Positions 4,512 to 14,093 of a stretch of 32,000 nt of DNA are shown piece after piece. Source of the stretch: Candidatus Lokiarchaeum ossiferum (GTDB lineage Archaea > Asgardarchaeota > Lokiarchaeia > Sigyniarchaeales > Promethearchaeaceae); contig CP104013.1 in NCBI GenBank assembly GCA_025839675.1, positions 4,320,001 to 4,352,000 on the forward strand. The letters run 5' to 3'. The notes beneath the pieces are model-generated. The model was not told the origin of the DNA and did not search any database. It worked only from the letters and a program-made list of their open reading frames with translations. Position 1 is the first letter of the stretch. Each line of letters begins with the position of its first letter. Position numbers and translations under genes: made by a program.

Positions 4512-6605
4512 CTAAACACTTAGTTGGGCATGTAATGCTTGTTGAATGGATTGAATATCAATATCCAGTGAATCCGCATCTTCATCGCTTAACATTGCTT
4601 CTTCATCTTCATAGACATCTTCTTCTAATTTCTTTACCCATTCATAAATTTTGGCAACGGATTGATCATCATCACTGGTGATGCGAGTTAACCGTGAATA
4701 AGTATCTTCCAATTTGATTTTGGCACTTGAAGCCCGATATCGGAGCAAGCAAATGTTCGATATTTCCATTAAATTACGGGTGATGGCCATAACATCCATT
4801 GTTTTATTACGTTCTTCACTTTTGATTTTTCGCATCATATTGATTTCTACAAATAATAATTCAATCATTTTCGCCAGCAATCCCGTCAATTGACCTGCTT
4901 CATTGCACCAAACACGAATTTCCAATGTTGAACTTGATCCGTTGATATATATTCGGGTAATAACTCTTCCCCCTGTAACTTTAGCTTCACTGCTAAACCA
5001 TGCTTCGGCTTCATAGTTTCCCGATTTATCATCTTCATAGGATGCCACATTTGTAACGTCAAATTGACCTACGGCTCGATGAGCGGCACTATAGGCCATT
5101 TGTGGAGGTAGATCTGCAATGAGAAATGCTCGAGCATCACTAGGTAGTGATTGGATGGCTTTTTGACAATCTTCAATGGTGTCCAAGCTTTTAATTAAAA
5201 GAGGGCATTTGATTTGGACATCTTTGGGATTGACATTCATGGTGTTTATTTTTCCCATGGCATCCTTGTAGATAACTGTGCCTCCAATTGTAGAGATCCC
5301 ACATTCCGCAGGTTCTAAATAGAAATCCACTCCATGGGTGTTGCCCGGATCAATAACAGGGATTGTGATAAGTTCTCTCGCCCTTCGATAGGAGCTGGGC
5401 ACATCTAATATAACTTTTATATCATGAATTGCCATATTAGATTTGTTGCGTACTACCACTTTGAAATGAAGTTGCCCCCCAACAAAATCATATTGACGGA
5501 CTACTTCAACCTCTCCAATTTTGGAAGGCATTTGGGGAGTTGCTGAAGCGTTTGTTGATGTATGAGGTGCATGAGAACTGAAGGATGTCACCGGTTGTTT
5601 CCCATCAGCTACAAATTGTCGTTTGGCCATATCAATATAACCATTAATAGATCCTCGAGAAATTAAAGTGGCTAACCCCTCTTCAACACGTTGTTCGGTA
5701 ATTGCCAGTTTTTTCGCCAAATCACCAATGGATATTGTTCTATAAGCACGGGCAATGGCTTTGATTTTTTCACTTAGTTTTTCTTCTGTAAGAAATTCGT
5801 GATTTTGGGTGAAAATACCGCGGATAGTTCCTTTTTGGATCAATTTAAATAGGGCTCTTCTTGCTAATTCAGGTGCAATTTGTAAATGGGTCGCTAAAGC
5901 ATTAATCATGAAAATTCCATTTTTAAGACAGAAGTTTTCAATTTCACTCTCCAATTCTTGTTCGGAAAGGGTAATTTTTCCTCCATCAGCAAAAAAGGCG
6001 ACAATAATTTTATTGCGCATCATGTTCATGATATAGTTTTTAACATTTCCTTCTGGAATTTCGAATTTCTGAGCCAGATCATAATGTACAACCTTTCCGT
6101 GGGTCTTGATCTCTTGCAGAATTAATTGAGTTAGTCCTTGTTCCAAATAATATCGTGTTTTTTTATGGTTAAATGTCCCACGAAGCTTATTTTTCCGGAT
6201 CAATTCGATCATAATTCGGGTAGTAGTGGCCGTACTGGCACTCATATTCTGCTGGAGTTGATCTAAGTCTACAAATCCTTGAGATTGGAGATCGCTTACC
6301 AAACGAGCTTCCATTTCTGTAGTAAGAAAGATGAAGATTTGTTTTTTTGAATCTAAAAATCCCTTGATTTGGTTGCGTTTAAGTAACTCTTCAATGGTTA
6401 TCTCAATTTCTACATTATTAAGACCATAACGCAATTGTAATGTCCGAAAGTTTGTTTCTATTGCTTCTTTCAAATCATTGGTGAAGCAATTTAAACAAAA
6501 CTCTCTACCTTTACTTCGTCGCAATTTTTCATTGCATTTATCGGGGTGGCGAGCTAAACCGTATTTTTCCGCTTCTCGCTCAATATATTTTTCTGAAGTG
6601 CCCAT
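4512..6605 (-). CDS. Large multi-winged-helix protein: 4-5 tandem PCI-like WH modules, then a beta-sandwich-like domain and an acidic helical C-terminus. Coordinates run from the first canonical ATG; the frame continues upstream.
   Basis: 697-aa ORF. Repeated modules of the form x-LA..L.I....V...L..LI..G.I.G.ID/F, e.g. ISIGDLAKKLAITEQRVEEGLATLISRGSINGYIDMAKRQFV, MINALATHLQIAPELARRALFKLIQKGTIRGIFTQNHEFL and VHYDLAQKFEIPEGNVKNYIMNMMRNKIIVAFFADGGKITL. A beta-rich region follows: VEVVRQYDFVGGQLHFKVVVRNKSNMAIHDIKVILDVP... Confidence 0.8.
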   Translation of the reverse strand: MGTSEKYIEREAEKYGLARHPDKCNEKLRRSKGREFCLNCFTNDLKEAIETNFRTLQLRYGLNNVEIEITIEELLKRNQIKGFLDSKKQIFIFLTTEMEARLVSDLQSQGFVDLDQLQQNMSASTATTTRIMIELIRKNKLRGTFNHKKTRYYLEQGLTQLILQEIKTHGKVVHYDLAQKFEIPEGNVKNYIMNMMRNKIIVAFFADGGKITLSEQELESEIENFCLKNGIFMINALATHLQIAPELARRALFKLIQKGTIRGIFTQNHEFLTEEKLSEKIKAIARAYRTISIGDLAKKLAITEQRVEEGLATLISRGSINGYIDMAKRQFVADGKQPVTSFSSHAPHTSTNASATPQMPSKIGEVEVVRQYDFVGGQLHFKVVVRNKSNMAIHDIKVILDVPSSYRRARELITIPVIDPGNTHGVDFYLEPAECGISTIGGTVIYKDAMGKINTMNVNPKDVQIKCPLLIKSLDTIEDCQKAIQSLPSDARAFLIADLPPQMAYSAAHRAVGQFDVTNVASYEDDKSGNYEAEAWFSSEAKVTGGRVITRIYINGSSSTLEIRVWCNEAGQLTGLLAKMIELLFVEINMMRKIKSEERNKTMDVMAITRNLMEISNICLLRYRASSAKIKLEDTYSRLTRITSDDDQSVAKIYEWVKKLEEDVYEDEEAMLSDEDADSLDIDIQSIQQALHAQLSV

Positions 6606-9634: not shown

Positions 9635-10160
9635 CTCTCCTGAAGCATTTTCTCAATTCCCTTAATTTAATTGTTTATTTTTTTAACCTTTTTTCCTCAC
9701 TCCTACAACGCGTTTAAATTGAGATTGTTATTTTACGATTTGATTTTTCCCTTTTCTTTTGCCATAAAATTAATCTTTCGTGGAAAATACAAAAGGAATT
9801 GTTAGGATCAAAGGCATGCATAGACATCCATCCCCCAAGGATGTTTCTACTGTCTGCTTAAGATGAAAACTTATATATGTTGCCGACAAAAATCTAATTA
9901 CGGTTGACATCTCATGTCTGCCAATCCTGAAGGTTCTGGAGAACAATTGTTAATTTTTGTGATCCTATCACCGCTCATATCAAAAAAAAGTTTGTCATCT
10001 CTGTGCGTAATGCTCCTTGATTCCCTTCGAGGTGGATCAGGAAGTGTTGAGGTCAATCATCTTTCATGGACTTTAGTTAATCAATATAATGGATGGAATG
10101 TTGAAGTAGATCAATCATTTGCATCCAAGATTTTGAATTGGCTATTCAATTAAATATTGT

Positions 10161-10393
10161 CACGCCTTACAGCACATGGTGCAGTTCCTTTTGGGATTTT
10201 TTTCACTTTGGTGAAAAAGGCGGGAACAGACCGCAACAGGCAGAACCATCATAAGGAGTGGCAGAACTGTGTCACCGATAGAAAATCCTTTAATTCTCAT
10301 CATAATTGGGGATAAAAGAAGAAATAAGGCACGTTGCTACAACAACATGCCTTAATACACGAATTCAGTAGACGCTGAATTCGGTGATCTAGC
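10161..10393 (+). ncRNA. Candidate IS110 bridge/seek-type guide RNA encoded in the IS left end (structure-based hypothesis)
   Basis: Non-coding, relatively GC-rich leader packed with helices. Hairpin 10199-10206/10211-10218. Hairpin 10220-10223/10231-10234. Long-range pairing ggtg+cagttc (10178-10187) with gaactg..cacc (10264-10276). Hairpin 10326-10336/10343-10353 (10 bp, 1 mismatch). Perfect 9-bp hairpin 10360-10368/10375-10383. Alternative pairing tcaccga (10272-10278) with tcggtga (10381-10387). Confidence 0.4.
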
Positions 10394-11911
10394 ATGAGTC
10401 AAAATCCCTCAAAAACTTTTAGGTTACACAAAAAAAAGTGTAAATCCCGTGGATCTCTGCACCTCTCTTCGAATTCAACTTTTATAGAACAGATAATTCG
10501 CTTTGGAGTTGGAATGGATGTGCATCGAGACACAGTTGTTGTCTGTATCTGTGCCCAAACGGCACAAAATGAAATTATTGTGGTAAAACAGCATTCCTTC
10601 CGCAATGTCCCAACAGGTCTTCAAGAAATGATGAACTTTCTGAAAAAGTACCGTCCAATTTCCCACTATCTAATGGAATGCACAGGGATCTATCATCGCC
10701 CAGTGTATCATGCGCTAGAACGAGCCTTCCCACAAGAAAAAGAGAAAATTATCGCAATGAACCCCCTTTTAGTCCATCGTCGTTTAACAGATTTGGGAAA
10801 CAAACATGACAAAGCAGATGCTCAACGTATGGCAGAGCTATCTTTTTATGATAAATTACTCCGCCCCAGCTACGTTGGCGATCCTCAATTCTTTCATCTC
10901 CGGGATTGTCTTCGGAGTTACACTCGAAGCCGACAAGATTCAACTCGCTTTAAAAACCGGATCCACCGTGTGCTTTGCAGCATTCACTTCATGTACAAAT
11001 TCGATTTGGGCAAGGAATGGTCCTTACAAATCCTTGACTATTGGATCCACCATGGAGGGGTCTTCCAAAATGCATTCCAAGCCCTTCTTTTGCACATGAT
11101 TGAAGAGGGAATGCCGATCTTGATATTGCAAAAGCATAGCGATGATTTTGCACCTTTTGCATCCGTTTCTCTGACACGGGAGAGTACATTTAATTTAGCA
11201 CAATTATTGCAGCAATTTCTCGAAGTAGAACGCCATGCTGCCCAATACTTGTTGCAGACAGAGCAATTTATTCTCTCGGATGCCGAATTCACAACCAATT
11301 ATCAAGCATTACTTACAATTCCATGCATGGGTCCCGTATCGGCCCTGCAAATTTTAACTGAAGTTGGAGATTTTCGTCGTTTCAGAGATTGGCGAGCATT
11401 CGCAAAGTTTTGTGGCGTTGTTCCAGAGATAAAAGAAAGTGGAAGTAGCATTAATAAGGGACATGTGAATAGATACACAAATGCCCACCTTCGGAGATCA
11501 TTGGTCCAGATTGCAAATTTAATAATTAACGGAAAAGCTTCTGGAACAGATCTTGATGAATTTGCTACTAAACAGTACCATTCACGTAAGTTGCCGTTCA
11601 AAAAGGCATGCATGAAGGTGGCTTTTAAATTAAGTCGAATCGTGTACAACATCCTAGTGAAAAACATTCAGTATGACCCTCACTATGAGCAAACTCAACA
11701 AAAGATGCAAAAACTACTGCGACGGAAAGCACGAACAGGCACTTTACTGCAATCCGCACAAGTGCGTGCATTGCGAAAGGATATAGGACGGTTCTTTGTA
11801 AACCATCATGAACACCTCAATTCGAAAAGTCGTTTTCTATTGACACGGGGCTTTACACAGATGATTGACAAGGTGAATAAAAAGGATCTGAATGATAAGG
11901 ATACGAAGTGA
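10394..11911 (+). CDS. IS110-family transposase/recombinase (N-terminal DEDD RuvC-like domain plus C-terminal Tnp/Ser domain), unusually long at 505 aa
   Basis: DEDD motifs GVGMDVHRDTVVV, MECTGIYH and NKHDKADAQRMAEL. C-terminal domain LLTIPCMGPVSALQILTEVGDFRRFRDWRAFAKFCGVVPEIKESGSS..GHVNRYTNAHLRRSL. About 85 extra C-terminal residues and a basic N-terminal leader. No alternative canonical start lies upstream of the first catalytic Asp. Confidence 0.9.
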   Translation: MSQNPSKTFRLHKKKCKSRGSLHLSSNSTFIEQIIRFGVGMDVHRDTVVVCICAQTAQNEIIVVKQHSFRNVPTGLQEMMNFLKKYRPISHYLMECTGIYHRPVYHALERAFPQEKEKIIAMNPLLVHRRLTDLGNKHDKADAQRMAELSFYDKLLRPSYVGDPQFFHLRDCLRSYTRSRQDSTRFKNRIHRVLCSIHFMYKFDLGKEWSLQILDYWIHHGGVFQNAFQALLLHMIEEGMPILILQKHSDDFAPFASVSLTRESTFNLAQLLQQFLEVERHAAQYLLQTEQFILSDAEFTTNYQALLTIPCMGPVSALQILTEVGDFRRFRDWRAFAKFCGVVPEIKESGSSINKGHVNRYTNAHLRRSLVQIANLIINGKASGTDLDEFATKQYHSRKLPFKKACMKVAFKLSRIVYNILVKNIQYDPHYEQTQQKMQKLLRRKARTGTLLQSAQVRALRKDIGRFFVNHHEHLNSKSRFLLTRGFTQMIDKVNKKDLNDKDTK

Positions 11912-11941
11912 GTAAAACGTGTAAAGGTTAAAAAAATATAG

Positions 11942-11990
11942 ACCTTAGTCCATAATGGGGGCTTCATGCCCCCTGGCTAAGGTTTTTTTT
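11942..11990 (+). terminator. Hairpin plus T8 at the IS right end (terminator-like, possibly also a recombination-site structure)
   Basis: accttag (11942-11948) pairs with ctaaggt (11977-11983). Inner stem gggggc (11957-11962) pairs with gccccc (11968-11973), loop ttcat. An 8-T run at 11983-11990 (its first T is the last base of ctaaggt) ends the structure. Confidence 0.55.
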
Positions 11991-12126
11991 AATATTTTTA
12001 TTAGAAGTTAGTATACAATAATGACCTGAAACTTGAAAATGATCGATATGTTTGAAAAAATACTTAAAGTTAAATGCAATATTTACGATGTTAAAATTAA
12101 CTTATAACATTGAGACAAGAGCATTT

Positions 12127-13902
12127 ATGACCATACCATTAAAACAAAATCCTTCAAAAATTTCTCAAAAAACCCGAAAAATGCAATTTTTTTATTTAGT
12201 AAATATTATACTAATTCTTGCCCTTCTAAGTGGTATAATCTCCTGTTTAAACGTCATAGTACCCAATCAAAATCGAACTGGCTCATATTCGGATAAACTT
12301 GAACCAGGAGATCTTTACTTGTATCCGATATTACCTCATGATAATGCTTTTTCAATAACATCTTCTTCACAATTAAATGCAGTTTTTATAGATCCTTCTC
12401 AATTATCCTTATCCAATTTTTCTTCAACTAAAACTACATATCAAGTCACAAGTGAAAGATCTCAAACGATCCGCTTCTATTGTCCTGCTGGGAGTAATAT
12501 TATTTTAGATTTTATAACTGGACATTCTTCTCTTGAATATAAATTATCATCTGATAGGGCACGTAGCTCACAACCTTCACAAACAAAAACTGGTAGCATA
12601 ATTGGTGGTTTTTTTTTACAAGTAGATAACGTCACAATTCCAATAAGTTCTTCTGCTGAACATACTCTTGAACTAAAGGCTCCCCGTTATTCATCACAAG
12701 ATGGAAGGGAATCGGGAAATATCAAAGTAGAACTTATTATTAATCGTGCTCAATATAACATCTCCAATTTTGATGAATTACAAAAAATTTCAGGTAATGG
12801 AAAACATTCTTTGGATGAAAATGATATCGGAAAAACTCTTTGTATTATAAATAGAGGTAATTCGGATTTGACTTTTGATTTAGAGATATTCCAGGATTTA
12901 GGTATTTATTGGATATTACTTGGATTATCTTTAATTTTAATAATAGGGCTCTTAAGAAAAAATGAAATGATTCATATTCGAATAAAAACAATAAAATCAA
13001 ATCAAAATATTGAAATGTTGCATGAAGTTCTTTCAGATTTGAACTATTTGACCTCTCAAGAGAATTTAGGAACTTTGAAAGATATTCAATCTATACTAAT
13101 CGAAAAACTTAGCATCATAAAATGCACTTGTAAAAAAAAAAGAGAATATTCGAAATGGTTTACCACAAAAAAAGGTATTTCGGTATCTTTTTATGATTTC
13201 CATAAATATAATGAAAAAATCTCTGAAACAATAGCCAAACTCCTATATAGAATATCCAACAGGTCTCACGAACCTTTGATTCAACGAGTAAAATTCTGTC
13301 ATCTTTTTTATAAGCATTTCCACGAAAACCTAGGCAAACCAATAATTACTAATGGATGGTTTGCTGAACCACTTACCCATATGATAGGTCTTGAAGGAAT
13401 TAGTTCATCCGAAAATATGCATCTTATTGATGCAATTCTGGCAATTCCATGTAAATTGATGCAATTGCAATTTTCCGCATTAAATTCTCTTTTGACTGAT
13501 CATTTTCAAGTTCTAAATAAAACGTACAATGAAGATCTCCCTAATTTATTAAAAAATTTCAAGGAATTTGCTGAGAATTATCCCAATGTTGTTCGAGTTT
13601 TTAGATTGGATATCAAAAATGAAATTAAAGTAATAGAAATTGCCATCAAACTCCAAGTAGCGATCCAAAAATTAAGTATAGAATTTAATCATGCACATAT
13701 TTTAGAATTAGTTGACGAAACTGGATGTTCGGAATCCGTATTAGAATTAAACATACCTAGAATAATATCTTATAAATTGCTAGATATTAAATATGATTCC
13801 AAGTATAAAAGAGTCAAATTTAATTTTGATATACAGGAAGAAATTGATGATTTAGTTGAAAAATTTGAAGATTGGGGACGGAATGGCAAGAAAAAGATTT
13901 GA
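12127..13902 (+). CDS. Hypothetical two-TM membrane protein: extracytoplasmic domain between the TMs and a large cytoplasmic domain ending in a WH-like module
   Basis: ATG 12127 (MTIPLKQNPSK...) is preferred to TTG 12052. TM1 is FFYLVNIILILALLSGIISCLNVIV and TM2 is LGIYWILLGLSLILIIGLL. C-terminal HILELVDETGCSESVLELNIPRIISYKLLDIKYDSKYKRVKF resembles the WH modules of the 4512..6605 product. No family recognised. Confidence 0.6.
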   Translation: MTIPLKQNPSKISQKTRKMQFFYLVNIILILALLSGIISCLNVIVPNQNRTGSYSDKLEPGDLYLYPILPHDNAFSITSSSQLNAVFIDPSQLSLSNFSSTKTTYQVTSERSQTIRFYCPAGSNIILDFITGHSSLEYKLSSDRARSSQPSQTKTGSIIGGFFLQVDNVTIPISSSAEHTLELKAPRYSSQDGRESGNIKVELIINRAQYNISNFDELQKISGNGKHSLDENDIGKTLCIINRGNSDLTFDLEIFQDLGIYWILLGLSLILIIGLLRKNEMIHIRIKTIKSNQNIEMLHEVLSDLNYLTSQENLGTLKDIQSILIEKLSIIKCTCKKKREYSKWFTTKKGISVSFYDFHKYNEKISETIAKLLYRISNRSHEPLIQRVKFCHLFYKHFHENLGKPIITNGWFAEPLTHMIGLEGISSSENMHLIDAILAIPCKLMQLQFSALNSLLTDHFQVLNKTYNEDLPNLLKNFKEFAENYPNVVRVFRLDIKNEIKVIEIAIKLQVAIQKLSIEFNHAHILELVDETGCSESVLELNIPRIISYKLLDIKYDSKYKRVKFNFDIQEEIDDLVEKFEDWGRNGKKKI

Positions 13903-14093
13903 TCTTGAAAAAATGAATTTTTCATATTTCCTTTTCAAATCCTAAATTGGTAATTTAATTAACCCTATAGTCACAAACCTGATCTACTATCCAAAAAGTT
14001 GACCGATTTGAAATTATTGTATCATGATTGAAGTCCACTGGTTTAGAGAGTAAATTTATATGATAATTGACATTAAAATAAAATAAAAAAAAT

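What the first reader, a model, noticed from the sequence alone, without database searches (positions are those of the whole stretch)
10153..10393. Structured ~235-nt leader of an archaeal IS110-family element: candidate bridge/seek guide RNA
The recombinase at 10394-11911 is unambiguously IS110-type (DEDD domain plus Ser-containing Tnp domain). In this family (work published in 2024 on IS621/IS110/IS1111), the non-coding end next to the recombinase gene encodes a structured RNA. Its two internal loops base-pair with the target DNA and with the element's own joined ends, so the DNA specifies its own integration site. Here the left end is long, non-coding, GC-enriched and almost entirely foldable. 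Helices: 10199-10206/10211-10218; 10220-10223/10231-10234; long-range 10178-10187 with 10264-10276; 10326-10336/10343-10353; 10360-10368/10375-10383; and a competing pairing of 10272-10278 with 10381-10387. Between the helices are unpaired stretches that echo the element's edges. tgtcac occurs at the proposed left terminus (10158-10163) and again at 10270-10275. cataattgggg (10301-10311) resembles cataatggggg at the right end (11951-11961). tttaatt (10289-10295) matches the reverse complement of the left flank (aattaaa, 10148-10154). An 8-nt direct repeat ggcagaac sits at 10239-10246 and 10260-10267. The long-LE/short-RE layout is the IS110-subgroup arrangement. All matches are short and AT-biased, so they are suggestive only.
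Basis: partly seen in the sequence, partly recalled or inferred. Interest (0 to 1): 0.8.

Follow-up and report, generated by a model that had tools for sequence, protein, structure and literature searches.

The report
Bridge RNA of an Asgard IS110
The insertion sequence in this Lokiarchaeum window very probably carries an RNA guide that chooses its own insertion sites, but the guide loops lie about 100-450 bases upstream of the flagged stretch, which is only the tail of the same folded RNA.

Summary
The window comes from Candidatus Lokiarchaeum ossiferum. ORF 10394-11911 is an IS110-family DEDD/Ser recombinase. Comparison with ten related loci, a related strain and two Logan contigs puts the element at about 9666-11990 (2.3 kb), not 10158-11961. 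The non-coding left end is therefore about 728 nt, not about 235 nt.

A roughly 480-nt RNA fold (9902-10383) is strongly supported by covariation: 40 of 104 pairs show compensatory changes. The flagged interval is real, structured and partly correctly folded, but it is the 3' scaffold plus the leader proper.

Two bridge-RNA-type internal loops lie upstream:
- **Target loop (9938-10000).** Its variable 5' strand repeats each copy's own left flank plus T-run (P about 0.0005). Its 3' strand is an A8 run.
- **Donor loop (10049-10168).** Its 3' strand, CAAUUAAA, is complementary to the first bases of the element, TTTAATTG. Its 5' strand, AUGGACU, is complementary to AGTCCAT in a conserved right-end hairpin.

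Both donor contacts covary across five sequence variants. No Rfam family matches.

Verdict: a bridge RNA of a new variant type. It has a large scaffold, 16-bp subterminal inverted repeats, T-run targets and non-canonical right-end recognition. All function is inferred from sequence.

The parts
9666..11990 (+). Whole IS110-family element, about 2325 bp. The ends are uncertain by a few bases because both lie in T-runs.
   Evidence: The homology boundaries with L001, L002, L004, L006, L016 and L017, which sit in different flanks, agree. The related strain L020 loses identity with the window at 9665-9668. Logan contig L021 ends at 9691, so the repeat starts at about 9662 for k = 31. The 99.8%-identical copies L017 and L018 diverge right after the right-end T-run.
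9666..9673 (+). Left-end start TTTAATTG: T's (core) plus the right-donor half-site read by the RNA's donor loop.
   Evidence: It is complementary to RNA 10147-10154, and the two change together in relatives: TTTAATTA, TTTTATTA, CATTTCGTTTTAT, ATTTCATAA.
9676..9691 (.). Left subterminal inverted repeat, TATTTTTTTAACCTTT.
   Evidence: It forms a perfect 16-nt inverted repeat with 11923-11938. The variable part changes on both arms in relatives, read by eye: AACC/GGTT here and GAAC/GTTC in L002.
9869..9892 (+). Candidate archaeal promoter: TATA-like TTATATAT (9871-9878) followed by the conserved motif CCGACAAAA. The predicted transcription start is near 9900.
   Evidence: The block is conserved in all relatives, including the distant ones. 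Its promoter role is inferred from the archaeal TATA consensus and spacing, and was not tested.
9902..10383 (+). Conserved structured RNA (scaffold plus bridge core plus leader hairpins).
   Evidence: RNAalifold gives 104 pairs. 92.3% of cells are paired, against 35-45% when partners are slid. 40 pairs have changes on both sides, and 0 of 500 shuffles reach that. The MFE z-score is -5.0.
9902..9938 (+). 5' strand of the long closing helix. Its partner is 10240-10280.
   Evidence: The helix is present in the MFE of all 8 sequences. Duplex energies are -25 to -65 kcal/mol for cognate pairs and -12 to -26 across subgroups. In L017 it was found as a 55-nt inverted repeat.
9938..10000 (+). Target-binding stem-loop. 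It has a closing helix (9938-9946/9992-10000), a variable 5' strand with UUAAUUUUU (9950-9958, left target guide), a distal hairpin (9958-9979) and a 3' strand with A8 (9982-9989).
   Evidence: The 5' strand equals each copy's own left flank plus T-run: TTAA|TTT here, TAA|TTT in L001, TTCC|TTT in L002 and AAT.CA|TTT in L007. Permutation gives P = 0.0003-0.0006. The A-run is complementary to the T-run at the insertion site, which is a low-complexity match.
10009..10048 (+). Hairpin between the two guide loops.
   Evidence: 12 of its 15 pairs have changes on both sides (helix 6).
10049..10168 (+). Donor-binding stem-loop. It has closing helices (10049-10059/10158-10168), a 5' strand (10060-10073) with AUGGACU at 10066-10072, a variable distal hairpin (10074-10144), and a 3' strand (10145-10157) with CAAUUAAA at 10147-10154.
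   Evidence: A column-wise scan over 7-8 loci and tests over 10 loci support both contacts. The 3' strand is complementary to the left-end start (P about 1e-5). The 5' strand is complementary to the right-end site (P about 5e-5). The distal hairpin covaries (helices 9-11).
10153..10393 (+). It holds the end of the donor stem, hairpin 10172-10182, a U-run/A-run hairpin (10199-10218), hairpin 10219-10234, the 3' strand of the closing helix (10240-10280), hairpins 10325-10354 and 10360-10383, and the Shine-Dalgarno-like GGTGAT (10383-10388).
10394..11911 (+). IS110-family recombinase, 505 aa.
   Evidence: Pfam DEDD_Tnp_IS110 plus Transposase_20. NCBIfam NF033542, 'IS110 family RNA-guided transposase', scores 191 bits against a cutoff of 140. 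It is homologous to the ISCro4 and IS621 transposases of known structure, and the ESGSS serine motif aligns.
11923..11938 (.). Right subterminal inverted repeat, AAAGGTTAAAAAAATA.
   Evidence: In relatives it overlaps the last codons of the recombinase (KKI-stop).
11943..11990 (+). Right-end hairpin (11943-11982) followed by T8 (11983-11990). The RNA-complementary site AGTCCAT (11947-11953) lies in its 5' arm.
   Evidence: In the hairpin, 79% of cells are paired and 6 pairs have changes on both sides, against 30-64% paired when partners are slid. The site covaries with RNA 10066-10072 through five variants.

Best explanation
The element at about 9666-11990 is an IS110-subgroup insertion sequence of Ca. 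Lokiarchaeum ossiferum. Its 728-nt left end encodes a bridge RNA.

**Transcription (inferred).** The RNA starts near 9900, from a TATA-like promoter inside the left end.

**Fold (shown by covariation).** A long closing helix (9902-9938 with 10240-10280) encloses two stem-loops. Each stem-loop has a large internal loop and a distal hairpin.

**Target loop (9938-10000).**
- Its 5' strand has the same sequence as the last 3-4 bases of the left flank plus a T-run. [quoted passage not shown]
- Its 3' strand is an A8 run that can pair with the T-run on the top strand.
- The element is therefore directed to T-runs preceded by a short specific sequence, which in practice means the T-rich terminator regions just after genes.

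**Donor loop (10049-10168).**
- Its 5' strand pairs with a 7-nt site in the 5' arm of the conserved right-end hairpin, 37 nt inside the right end.

**Recombination (inferred from IS621).** The 505-aa DEDD/Ser recombinase would bind this RNA and recombine the joined ends with the target at a T-rich core.

**The flagged interval (10153-10393).** It supplies one strand of the closing helix and two hairpins in front of the ribosome-binding site. It carries no detectable guide.

**Shown:** element boundaries, RNA fold, and co-variation of loop sequences with ends and flanks. **Inferred:** transcription, protein binding, strand choice, core position and catalysis.
For: **Family and boundaries**
- The recombinase belongs to the IS110 family.
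- Four independent sources give the same boundaries.

**Fold**
- 104 pairs, 40 with compensatory changes. 92% of cells are paired, against 35-45% when partners are slid. 0 of 500 shuffles reach the observed values.
- The closing helix is present in all 8 MFE structures and is subgroup-specific.

**Guide relations**
- The target-loop 5' strand matches each copy's own left flank: run of 4 in the window, 3 in L001, 4 in L002, and 6 of 8 positions in L007. Permutation gives P = 0.0003-0.0006.
- Logan contig L021 implies that the copies in this genome share TTAA just outside the element, as that guide predicts.
- The donor-loop 3' strand is complementary to the left-end start in 5 co-changing variants, up to 13 nt in L007, P about 1e-5.
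- The donor-loop 5' strand is complementary to the right-end site in 5 co-changing variants, P about 5e-5.

**Match to the IS621 paradigm**
- The loop order (target first, donor second), the topology (internal loop plus distal hairpin), the variable target loop and the conserved donor loop all agree with the IS621 description (PMC11208160).
- Insertions sit just downstream of genes, at T-runs.
Against: - No expression data are available, and no Rfam hit was found. The published bridge-RNA covariance models could not be run.
- The expected left donor guide, an RNA stretch identical to the right-end terminus, was not found. The right-end contact is to the top strand and lies 37 nt inside the end, unlike IS621.
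- That right-end site is also present in the recombinase mRNA, so the contact could be RNA-RNA.
- The A-run/T-run match is low-complexity. The base next to the A-run fits the base after the T-run in only 6 of 12 junctions, counted by eye from the alignments.
- In subgroup B and L015 the left-flank match is only 1 nt plus the T-run.
- The permutation tests do not correct for relatedness. The effective number of independent lineages is about 5.
- The exact core and ends cannot be fixed within the T-runs.
Confidence: 0.75

Rival explanations
1. The structured left end is only a cis-regulatory 5' leader of the recombinase mRNA. It would control translation or stability, for example by hairpins next to the ribosome-binding site and a 5'-3' contact with the right-end hairpin, and would have no role in choosing DNA sites.
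For: - Two covarying hairpins sit directly before the GGTGAT ribosome-binding site.
- The 7-nt site in the right-end hairpin is on the same transcript as the leader, so that complementarity could be RNA-RNA.
- A further conserved hairpin lies in the first 50 nt of the ORF.
Against: - It does not explain why a loop strand is complementary to the first 8-13 bases of the element. Those bases lie upstream of the likely promoter, and they co-change with the loop.
- It does not explain why another loop strand repeats each copy's own left flank, which is not part of the element.
- The recombinase family is known to need such an RNA.
Confidence: 0.1
2. The co-varying short matches are DNA-level inverted repeats rather than RNA guides. 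They would be protein-binding sites or cruciform-forming sequences recognised by the recombinase.
For: - The element does have a 16-bp subterminal inverted repeat and a right-end hairpin that could act at the DNA level.
- Both donor-loop matches are formally inverted repeats within the element.
Against: - The matches sit exactly on the two strands of an internal loop of a fold supported by 40 compensatory pairs.
- The sequences drift freely (TTTAATTG, CGTTTTAT, CATAA), which is not expected for a protein-recognition site.
- The left-flank identity cannot be an element-internal protein site.
Confidence: 0.07
3. One reading: the element runs from about 10158 to about 11961, and its roughly 235-nt leader (10153-10393) is the bridge or seek RNA. 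Everything upstream would be a separate host element into which it inserted.
For: Logan contig L003 spans exactly 10161-11966 in three samples, with CA at both ends. At first sight that looks like a 1.8-kb repeat unit.
Against: - Helices with covariation cross 10160/10161 and tie 9902-9938 to 10240-10280.
- The subterminal inverted repeat links 9676-9691 to 11923-11938.
- In both subgroups the 2.3-kb unit moves as one piece.
- The contig ends are explained without a nested element. The only exact blocks of 31 nt or more that diverged family members share lie at 10142-10186 and 11930-11990. A diverged paralogue in the sample would therefore break a k = 31 graph at 10161 and 11966.
- The proposed loop/end echoes are not conserved.
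Confidence: 0.03

Closest known systems
IS621 / ISCro4 bridge RNA systems (IS110 subgroup; Durrant et al. 2024, PMC11208160; PDB 8wt6, 9t56)
   Same: - A DEDD plus Ser recombinase, homologous by sequence to both solved proteins.
- The RNA is encoded in a long left end upstream of the gene.
- There are two internal loops, each with a distal hairpin, with the target loop first and the donor loop second.
- The 5' strand of the target loop has the sense of the left target. The 3' strand of the donor loop is complementary to the core plus the start of the left end.
- The target loop is variable and the donor loop is conserved.
   Different: - The recombinase is about 170 aa longer.
- The left end is 728 nt, whereas the RE-LE of IS621 totals 298 bp.
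- The two loops are embedded in a roughly 380-nt domain closed by a 35-40-bp helix, with about 100 nt more of conserved hairpins behind it.
- There are 13-16-bp subterminal inverted repeats.
- The right end carries a conserved hairpin plus T-run.
- The 5' strand of the donor loop is complementary to (not identical with) a right-end site 37 nt inside the end.
- The target is a T-run rather than a complex 11-14-nt sequence.
- There is a likely internal archaeal promoter rather than a junction-spanning sigma-70 promoter.
IS1111 subgroup / seekRNA (Siddiquee et al. 2024; as summarised in PMC11208160)
   Same: Subterminal inverted repeats of 7-17 bp are a hallmark of IS1111 elements. This element has a 13-16-bp pair.
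   Different: IS1111 elements have a short left end and a long right end, and they encode the RNA downstream of the gene. Here the RNA is upstream, and the right end is only 79 nt.
Archaeal box C/D sRNA with Nop5 (proposed relatives of IS110 recombinase and bridge RNA; Vaysset et al. 2024, 10.1101/2024.06.21.599552)
   Same: An RNA with two bulged guide regions, bound (by inference) by a protein with a Nop-like domain. The host is an Asgard archaeon.
   Different: No C/D or K-turn motifs were looked for systematically, and none is obvious. The guides here match DNA ends and flanks, not rRNA. No membership is claimed.

Membership tests
IS110 family, IS110 subgroup (insertion sequence) | Recombinase with an N-terminal DEDD (RuvC-like) domain and a C-terminal Tnp domain with a conserved Ser | tested here: met
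   PF01548 (E = 2.5e-18) and PF02371 (E = 1.8e-19) both match. NF033542 scores 191 bits against a cutoff of 140. ESGSS aligns with ISCro4 and IS621.
IS110 family, IS110 subgroup (insertion sequence) | Long non-coding left end and short right end, with the RNA upstream of the gene | tested here: met
   The left end is 9666-10393 (728 nt) and the right end is 11912-11990 (79 nt). The structured RNA lies in the left end.
IS110 family, IS110 subgroup (insertion sequence) | No long terminal inverted repeats; only 2-3-bp subterminal repeats in this subgroup | tested here: not met
   There is a 16-bp perfect subterminal inverted repeat (9676-9691/11923-11938), conserved with co-changes in relatives. 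This is an IS1111-like trait.
IS110 family, IS110 subgroup (insertion sequence) | Site-specific insertion with a duplicated core dinucleotide | tested here: inconclusive
   All junctions lie in T-runs of 3-9 T on both sides, so the core cannot be read. The related strain shows CCCTTA-T7 at the site.
Bridge RNA (Durrant et al. 2024) | Match to the published bridge-RNA or seekRNA covariance models | not testable with these tools
   The models are not available here. Rfam 15 gives no hit at the gathering threshold or at E <= 10 over 9900-12300.
Bridge RNA (Durrant et al. 2024) | Conserved fold with two internal loops, each closed by stems | tested here: met
   The loops lie at 9947-9957/9980-9991 and 10060-10073/10145-10157, between helices 4/5 and 7-9. 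The fold is supported by covariation.
Bridge RNA (Durrant et al. 2024) | 5' strand of the target loop identical to the left target plus core (pairs with the bottom strand) | tested here: met
   Each copy matches its own flank, with P = 0.0003-0.0006 over 10 loci. The match is strongest in the window, L001, L002 and L007.
Bridge RNA (Durrant et al. 2024) | 3' strand of the target loop complementary to the core plus right target | tested here: inconclusive
   The A7-A9 run is complementary to the T-run. The next base fits in 6 of 12 junctions, counted by eye from the alignments. The match is low-complexity.
Bridge RNA (Durrant et al. 2024) | 3' strand of the donor loop complementary to the core plus the start of the left end | tested here: met
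   The complementarity is 8-13 nt, with five co-changing variants and P about 1e-5.
Bridge RNA (Durrant et al. 2024) | 5' strand of the donor loop identical to the right-end terminus plus core (pairs with the bottom strand) | tested here: not met
   No such identity was found. Instead there is a 7-nt complementarity to a top-strand site 37 nt inside the right end, which covaries (P about 5e-5).
Bridge RNA (Durrant et al. 2024) | Expressed as a stable RNA, bound by the recombinase and required for recombination | not testable with these tools
   No expression or biochemical data are available here.
IS1111 subgroup / seekRNA | RNA encoded in a long right end downstream of the gene | tested here: not met
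   The right end is 79 nt and holds only a hairpin and a T-run.

The most novel reading that the evidence does not exclude
This would be the first bridge RNA worked out for an archaeon, and an Asgard one. It would use a variant recognition geometry:
- A target loop specialised for T-run terminators, with only 3-4 programmable bases.
- A donor loop that reads both element ends on the same (top) strand, with the right-end contact inside a conserved DNA hairpin 37 nt from the crossover.
- All of this held in a scaffold about twice the size of known bridge RNAs.

If true, right-end recognition would work through hairpin opening or invasion rather than through the canonical left donor guide.
Probability: 0.35. 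Interest if true: 0.7.

Novelty: new variant of a known kind. Interest (0 to 1): 0.6.

Why it matters
- **A test of generality.** Bridge recombinases are being developed as programmable genome-editing tools, and all characterised examples are bacterial. An archaeal family whose natural copies show guide/flank and guide/end co-variation is an independent test of how general the mechanism is.
- **Three departures from the paradigm.** These are a large scaffold, IS1111-like subterminal repeats combined with a left-end RNA, and a right-end contact inside a hairpin. They bear on how donor recognition evolved.
- **A benign insertion niche.** The apparent preference for T-runs after genes, which are archaeal terminators, suggests a harmless place for the element to land.
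- **The Nop5 connection.** IS110 recombinases have been proposed as relatives of Nop5/box C/D RNPs (10.1101/2024.06.21.599552). A tractable example in a cultured Asgard archaeon is therefore a useful comparison point.
- **Annotation.** Public annotation of this genome names the protein, but not the RNA or the true element ends.

Tried and rejected
1. **Rfam.** Scans at the gathering threshold and at E <= 10 found nothing relevant.
2. **Nested-element model.** In this model a 1.8-kb IS (10161-11966) sits inside a roughly 530-bp host element, as Logan contig L003 suggested. I pursued it at length and rejected it. Covarying helices and the subterminal inverted repeat span the supposed junctions. 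The contig ends also coincide with the exact blocks that diverged family members share.
3. **Right end at the hairpin loop or just after AGTCCAT.** Rejected because the 99.8%-identical copies L017 and L018 stay identical through the hairpin and T-run. The related strain also shows no hairpin at the site.
4. **Inversion between internal sites as the cause of the Logan breaks.** The predicted contig ends do not fit.
They are not conserved.
6. **Search for a canonical left donor guide.** I looked for RNA identical to GGCTAAGGTT or its equivalents. Only lineage-specific 6-mers turned up.
7. **Extension of the A-run guide into the right flank.** The fit is inconsistent.
8. **U-run strand at 10197-10203 as a further guide.** It gives a striking 9-nt match in L002 only.
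9. **More copies.** The exact-protein look-up does not return the source chromosome. The first metagenome scan found nothing. Two viral-contig DNA scans gave only chance hits.
10. **Literature search.** No paper on Lokiarchaeal or Asgard bridge RNAs is in the library.
Full report
**1. What is at the coordinates**

The interval 10153-10393 lies directly upstream of a 505-aa ORF (10394-11911). That ORF matches Pfam DEDD_Tnp_IS110 and Transposase_20. It also matches NCBIfam NF033542, 'IS110 family RNA-guided transposase', at 191 bits against a cutoff of 140. It is homologous by sequence to the structurally solved ISCro4 and IS621 transposases, and the ESGSS serine motif aligns.

The interval folds much better than shuffled sequence (z = -6.2). 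No Rfam family matches it or anything else in the window. Protein searches identify the source as Candidatus Lokiarchaeum ossiferum. That genome holds at least three copies of the gene, one of them degenerate.

**2. Where the element really ends**

I collected relatives at three distances:
- 74-80% protein identity: L001, L002, L004, L005.
- 56-62%: L006, L015, L016, L017, L018.
- 40-48%: L007-L010, L019.

Their flanking genes differ, so they are separate insertions.

In both close subgroups, pairwise comparison gives the same unit of about 2.3 kb. It starts about 730-755 nt upstream of the start codon and ends after a hairpin and T-run. Three further observations agree:
- The 99.8%-identical pair L017/L018 diverges immediately after the T-run.
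- A related Lokiarchaeum genome (L020, 99.5% identical on the left) loses identity with the window at 9665-9668.
- The Logan contig carrying the upstream gene (L021) ends at 9691. For k = 31 that places the start of the repeat at about 9662.

The element is therefore about 9666-11990. Its left end is 728 nt and its right end is 79 nt.

**3. A misleading contig**

Logan contig L003 equals window 10161-11966 exactly, with CA at both ends, in three samples. This led me to test at length a nested model, with a 1.8-kb IS inside a host element. I reject it for three reasons:
- Covarying helices cross 10160/10161 and join 9902-9938 to 10240-10280.
- A 16-bp perfect subterminal inverted repeat joins 9676-9691 to 11923-11938.
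- The only exact blocks of 31 nt or more shared between diverged family members lie at 10142-10186 and 11930-11990.

A diverged paralogue in the sample would therefore split a k = 31 graph at just these places. This explanation is likely but not proven, because I could not read the other copies.

**4. The RNA fold**

I aligned eight leaders (A5, window 9894-10396) and obtained a consensus of 104 pairs, of which 38-40 have compensatory changes. 92.3% of cells are paired, against 35-45% when partners are slid by 1-3 columns. None of 500 shuffles reaches the observed values. The whole 503-nt stretch has z = -5.0.

One RNAalifold helix (9926-9937/10183-10194) is probably wrong. In every individual MFE, 9902-9938 pairs with 10240-10280, and the duplex energy favours that pairing (-25 to -65 kcal/mol). 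Strands combined across subgroups pair poorly.

**5. Guide loops**

I scanned every RNA alignment column against the element ends and flanks across all loci. I then checked the distant relatives. Both guide loops lie inside the closing helix.

Donor-type loop:
- It lies between helices 10049-10059/10158-10168 and 10074-10079/10139-10144.
- Its 3' strand, CAAUUAAA (10147-10154), is the reverse complement of the first eight bases of the element, TTTAATTG (9666-9673).
- The pair changes together: UAAUUAAA/TTTAATTA in L002 and L015, UAAUAAAA/TTTTATTA in subgroup B, AUAAAACGAAAUG/CATTTCGTTTTAT in L007, and UUAUGAAAU/ATTTCATAA in L010. Permutation gives P about 1e-5.
- Its 5' strand, AUGGACU (10066-10072), is the reverse complement of AGTCCAT (11947-11953) in the right end.
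- That pair also changes together: AGGGACU/AGTCCCT, AAAGACU/AGTCTTT, AGAGAUA/TATCTCT and AGAGACA/TGTCTCT. Permutation gives P about 5e-5.

Target-type loop:
- It lies between the invariant helix 9938-9946/9992-10000 and hairpin 9958-9979.
- Its 5' strand is variable. In each copy it repeats the last bases of that copy's left flank followed by T's: UUAA+U5 against TTAA|TTT in the window, UAA+U3 against TAA|TTTT in L001, UUCC+U3 against TTCC|TTT in L002, and 6 of 8 positions in L007. Only 1 nt matches in subgroup B and L015.
- Permutation over ten loci gives P = 0.0003-0.0006.
- Its 3' strand is an A7-A9 run, complementary to the T-run in which every copy sits.
- The Logan result that the copies in this genome share TTAA just outside the element fits this guide.

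These tests ignore relatedness. The real number of independent lineages is about five.

**6. Comparison with the known mechanism**

According to Durrant et al. [quoted passage not shown] The target loop comes first and is variable, and the donor loop is conserved.

Here the order, the topology and the conservation pattern fit. So do the left target guide and the right donor guide.

Two things do not fit:
- The right target guide is only an A-run.
- The donor loop's 5' strand is complementary to a top-strand site 37 nt inside the right end, in the 5' arm of a conserved, covarying hairpin. It is not identical to the terminus. I found no canonical left donor guide.

That contact could be RNA-DNA, which would open the hairpin. 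It could instead be RNA-RNA, because the site is also in the mRNA's 3' region. I cannot decide between these.

Other differences from IS621 are as follows:
- The recombinase is 505 aa.
- The scaffold is about twice as large.
- The subterminal inverted repeats are 13-16 bp, which is an IS1111-like trait.
- A conserved TATA-like box lies at 9871-9878, followed by CCGACAAAA. This suggests an internal archaeal promoter with a start near 9900 (inference only).

**7. Biology suggested**

All insertions lie in T-runs shortly after a gene end or a hairpin. T-runs are archaeal terminators. The element also ends in its own hairpin plus T-run. This looks like targeting of terminator regions. It is an inference.

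**8. Novelty**

The kind of system is known, and NCBI already names the protein as RNA-guided. I found no paper describing a bridge RNA from Lokiarchaea or other Asgard archaea in the searchable library. The RNA itself, the true element ends and the variant features appear to be undescribed. I class this as a new variant of a known kind.

**9. Verdict on the finding**

The flagged 241 nt are the tail of the structured RNA, not its guide part. The guide part lies at 9938-10168.

Noticed in passing
window 9669-14033; L020 7388-7469: A related Lokiarchaeum genome (GCA_041410205.1, 98-99.5% identical around this site) lacks both the IS and most of the 616-aa ORF (12052-13902). Its junction reads CCCTTA-TTTTTTT-AAATTGCC, where AAATTGCC... 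is 90% identical to window 13637-13684, inside that ORF. This could be an IS-associated deletion or an independent indel. Its left breakpoint coincides with the left end of the IS.
   Followed up: partly
window 10161-11966 (L003): A Logan contig from the L. ossiferum culture equals this span exactly and recurs in three samples. The span is bounded by CA on both sides. The likely cause is that a diverged paralogue shares exact blocks at 10142-10190 and from about 11937 onward. I could not verify this without the other genomic copies.
   Followed up: partly
window 11909-11941: The recombinase ORF stops at a TGA ten codons before the family-typical end (...KKI-TAG), and that end follows in frame. 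In relatives the last codons overlap the right subterminal inverted repeat. All L. ossiferum copies share the early stop.
   Followed up: partly
window 10394-10445: GenBank annotates the protein from Met41 (465 aa) and RefSeq from 10394 (505 aa). The first 34 nt of the longer ORF are identical in relatives that are about 75% identical overall. A hairpin with an A8 loop (TTACAC-A8-GTGTAA, about 10424-10443) shows a compensatory change in L001, L004 and L015 (TTACGC...GCGTAA). This suggests an RNA-level constraint inside the coding start.
   Followed up: partly
window 10197-10218; L002 about 600-630: A U-run/A-run hairpin lies just after the donor stem-loop. In L002 the U-rich strand reads UUUCUUUCU, identical to that copy's right junction TTTCTTTCT. 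No comparable match appears in the other loci. This could be a further guide or chance.
   Followed up: partly
window 9838-9856 and 9882-9892: Two conserved blocks lie in the part of the left end upstream of the RNA. One is CATCCATCCCCCAAGGATG, a small palindrome-like motif. The other is CCGACAAAA, invariant even in distant relatives, lying between the TATA-like box and the predicted start. Their function is unknown.
   Followed up: no
window 4512-6605 (- strand): A 697-aa ORF has DDRGK, E3_UFM1_ligase and PCI domain matches. This is a UFM1-ligase-like eukaryotic signature protein. It sits next to a proteasome subunit gene in the related locus.
   Followed up: no
window 12052-13902: The 616-aa ORF directly downstream of the IS has no Pfam match and a predicted N-terminal hydrophobic segment. 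It is absent from the related strain.
   Followed up: no
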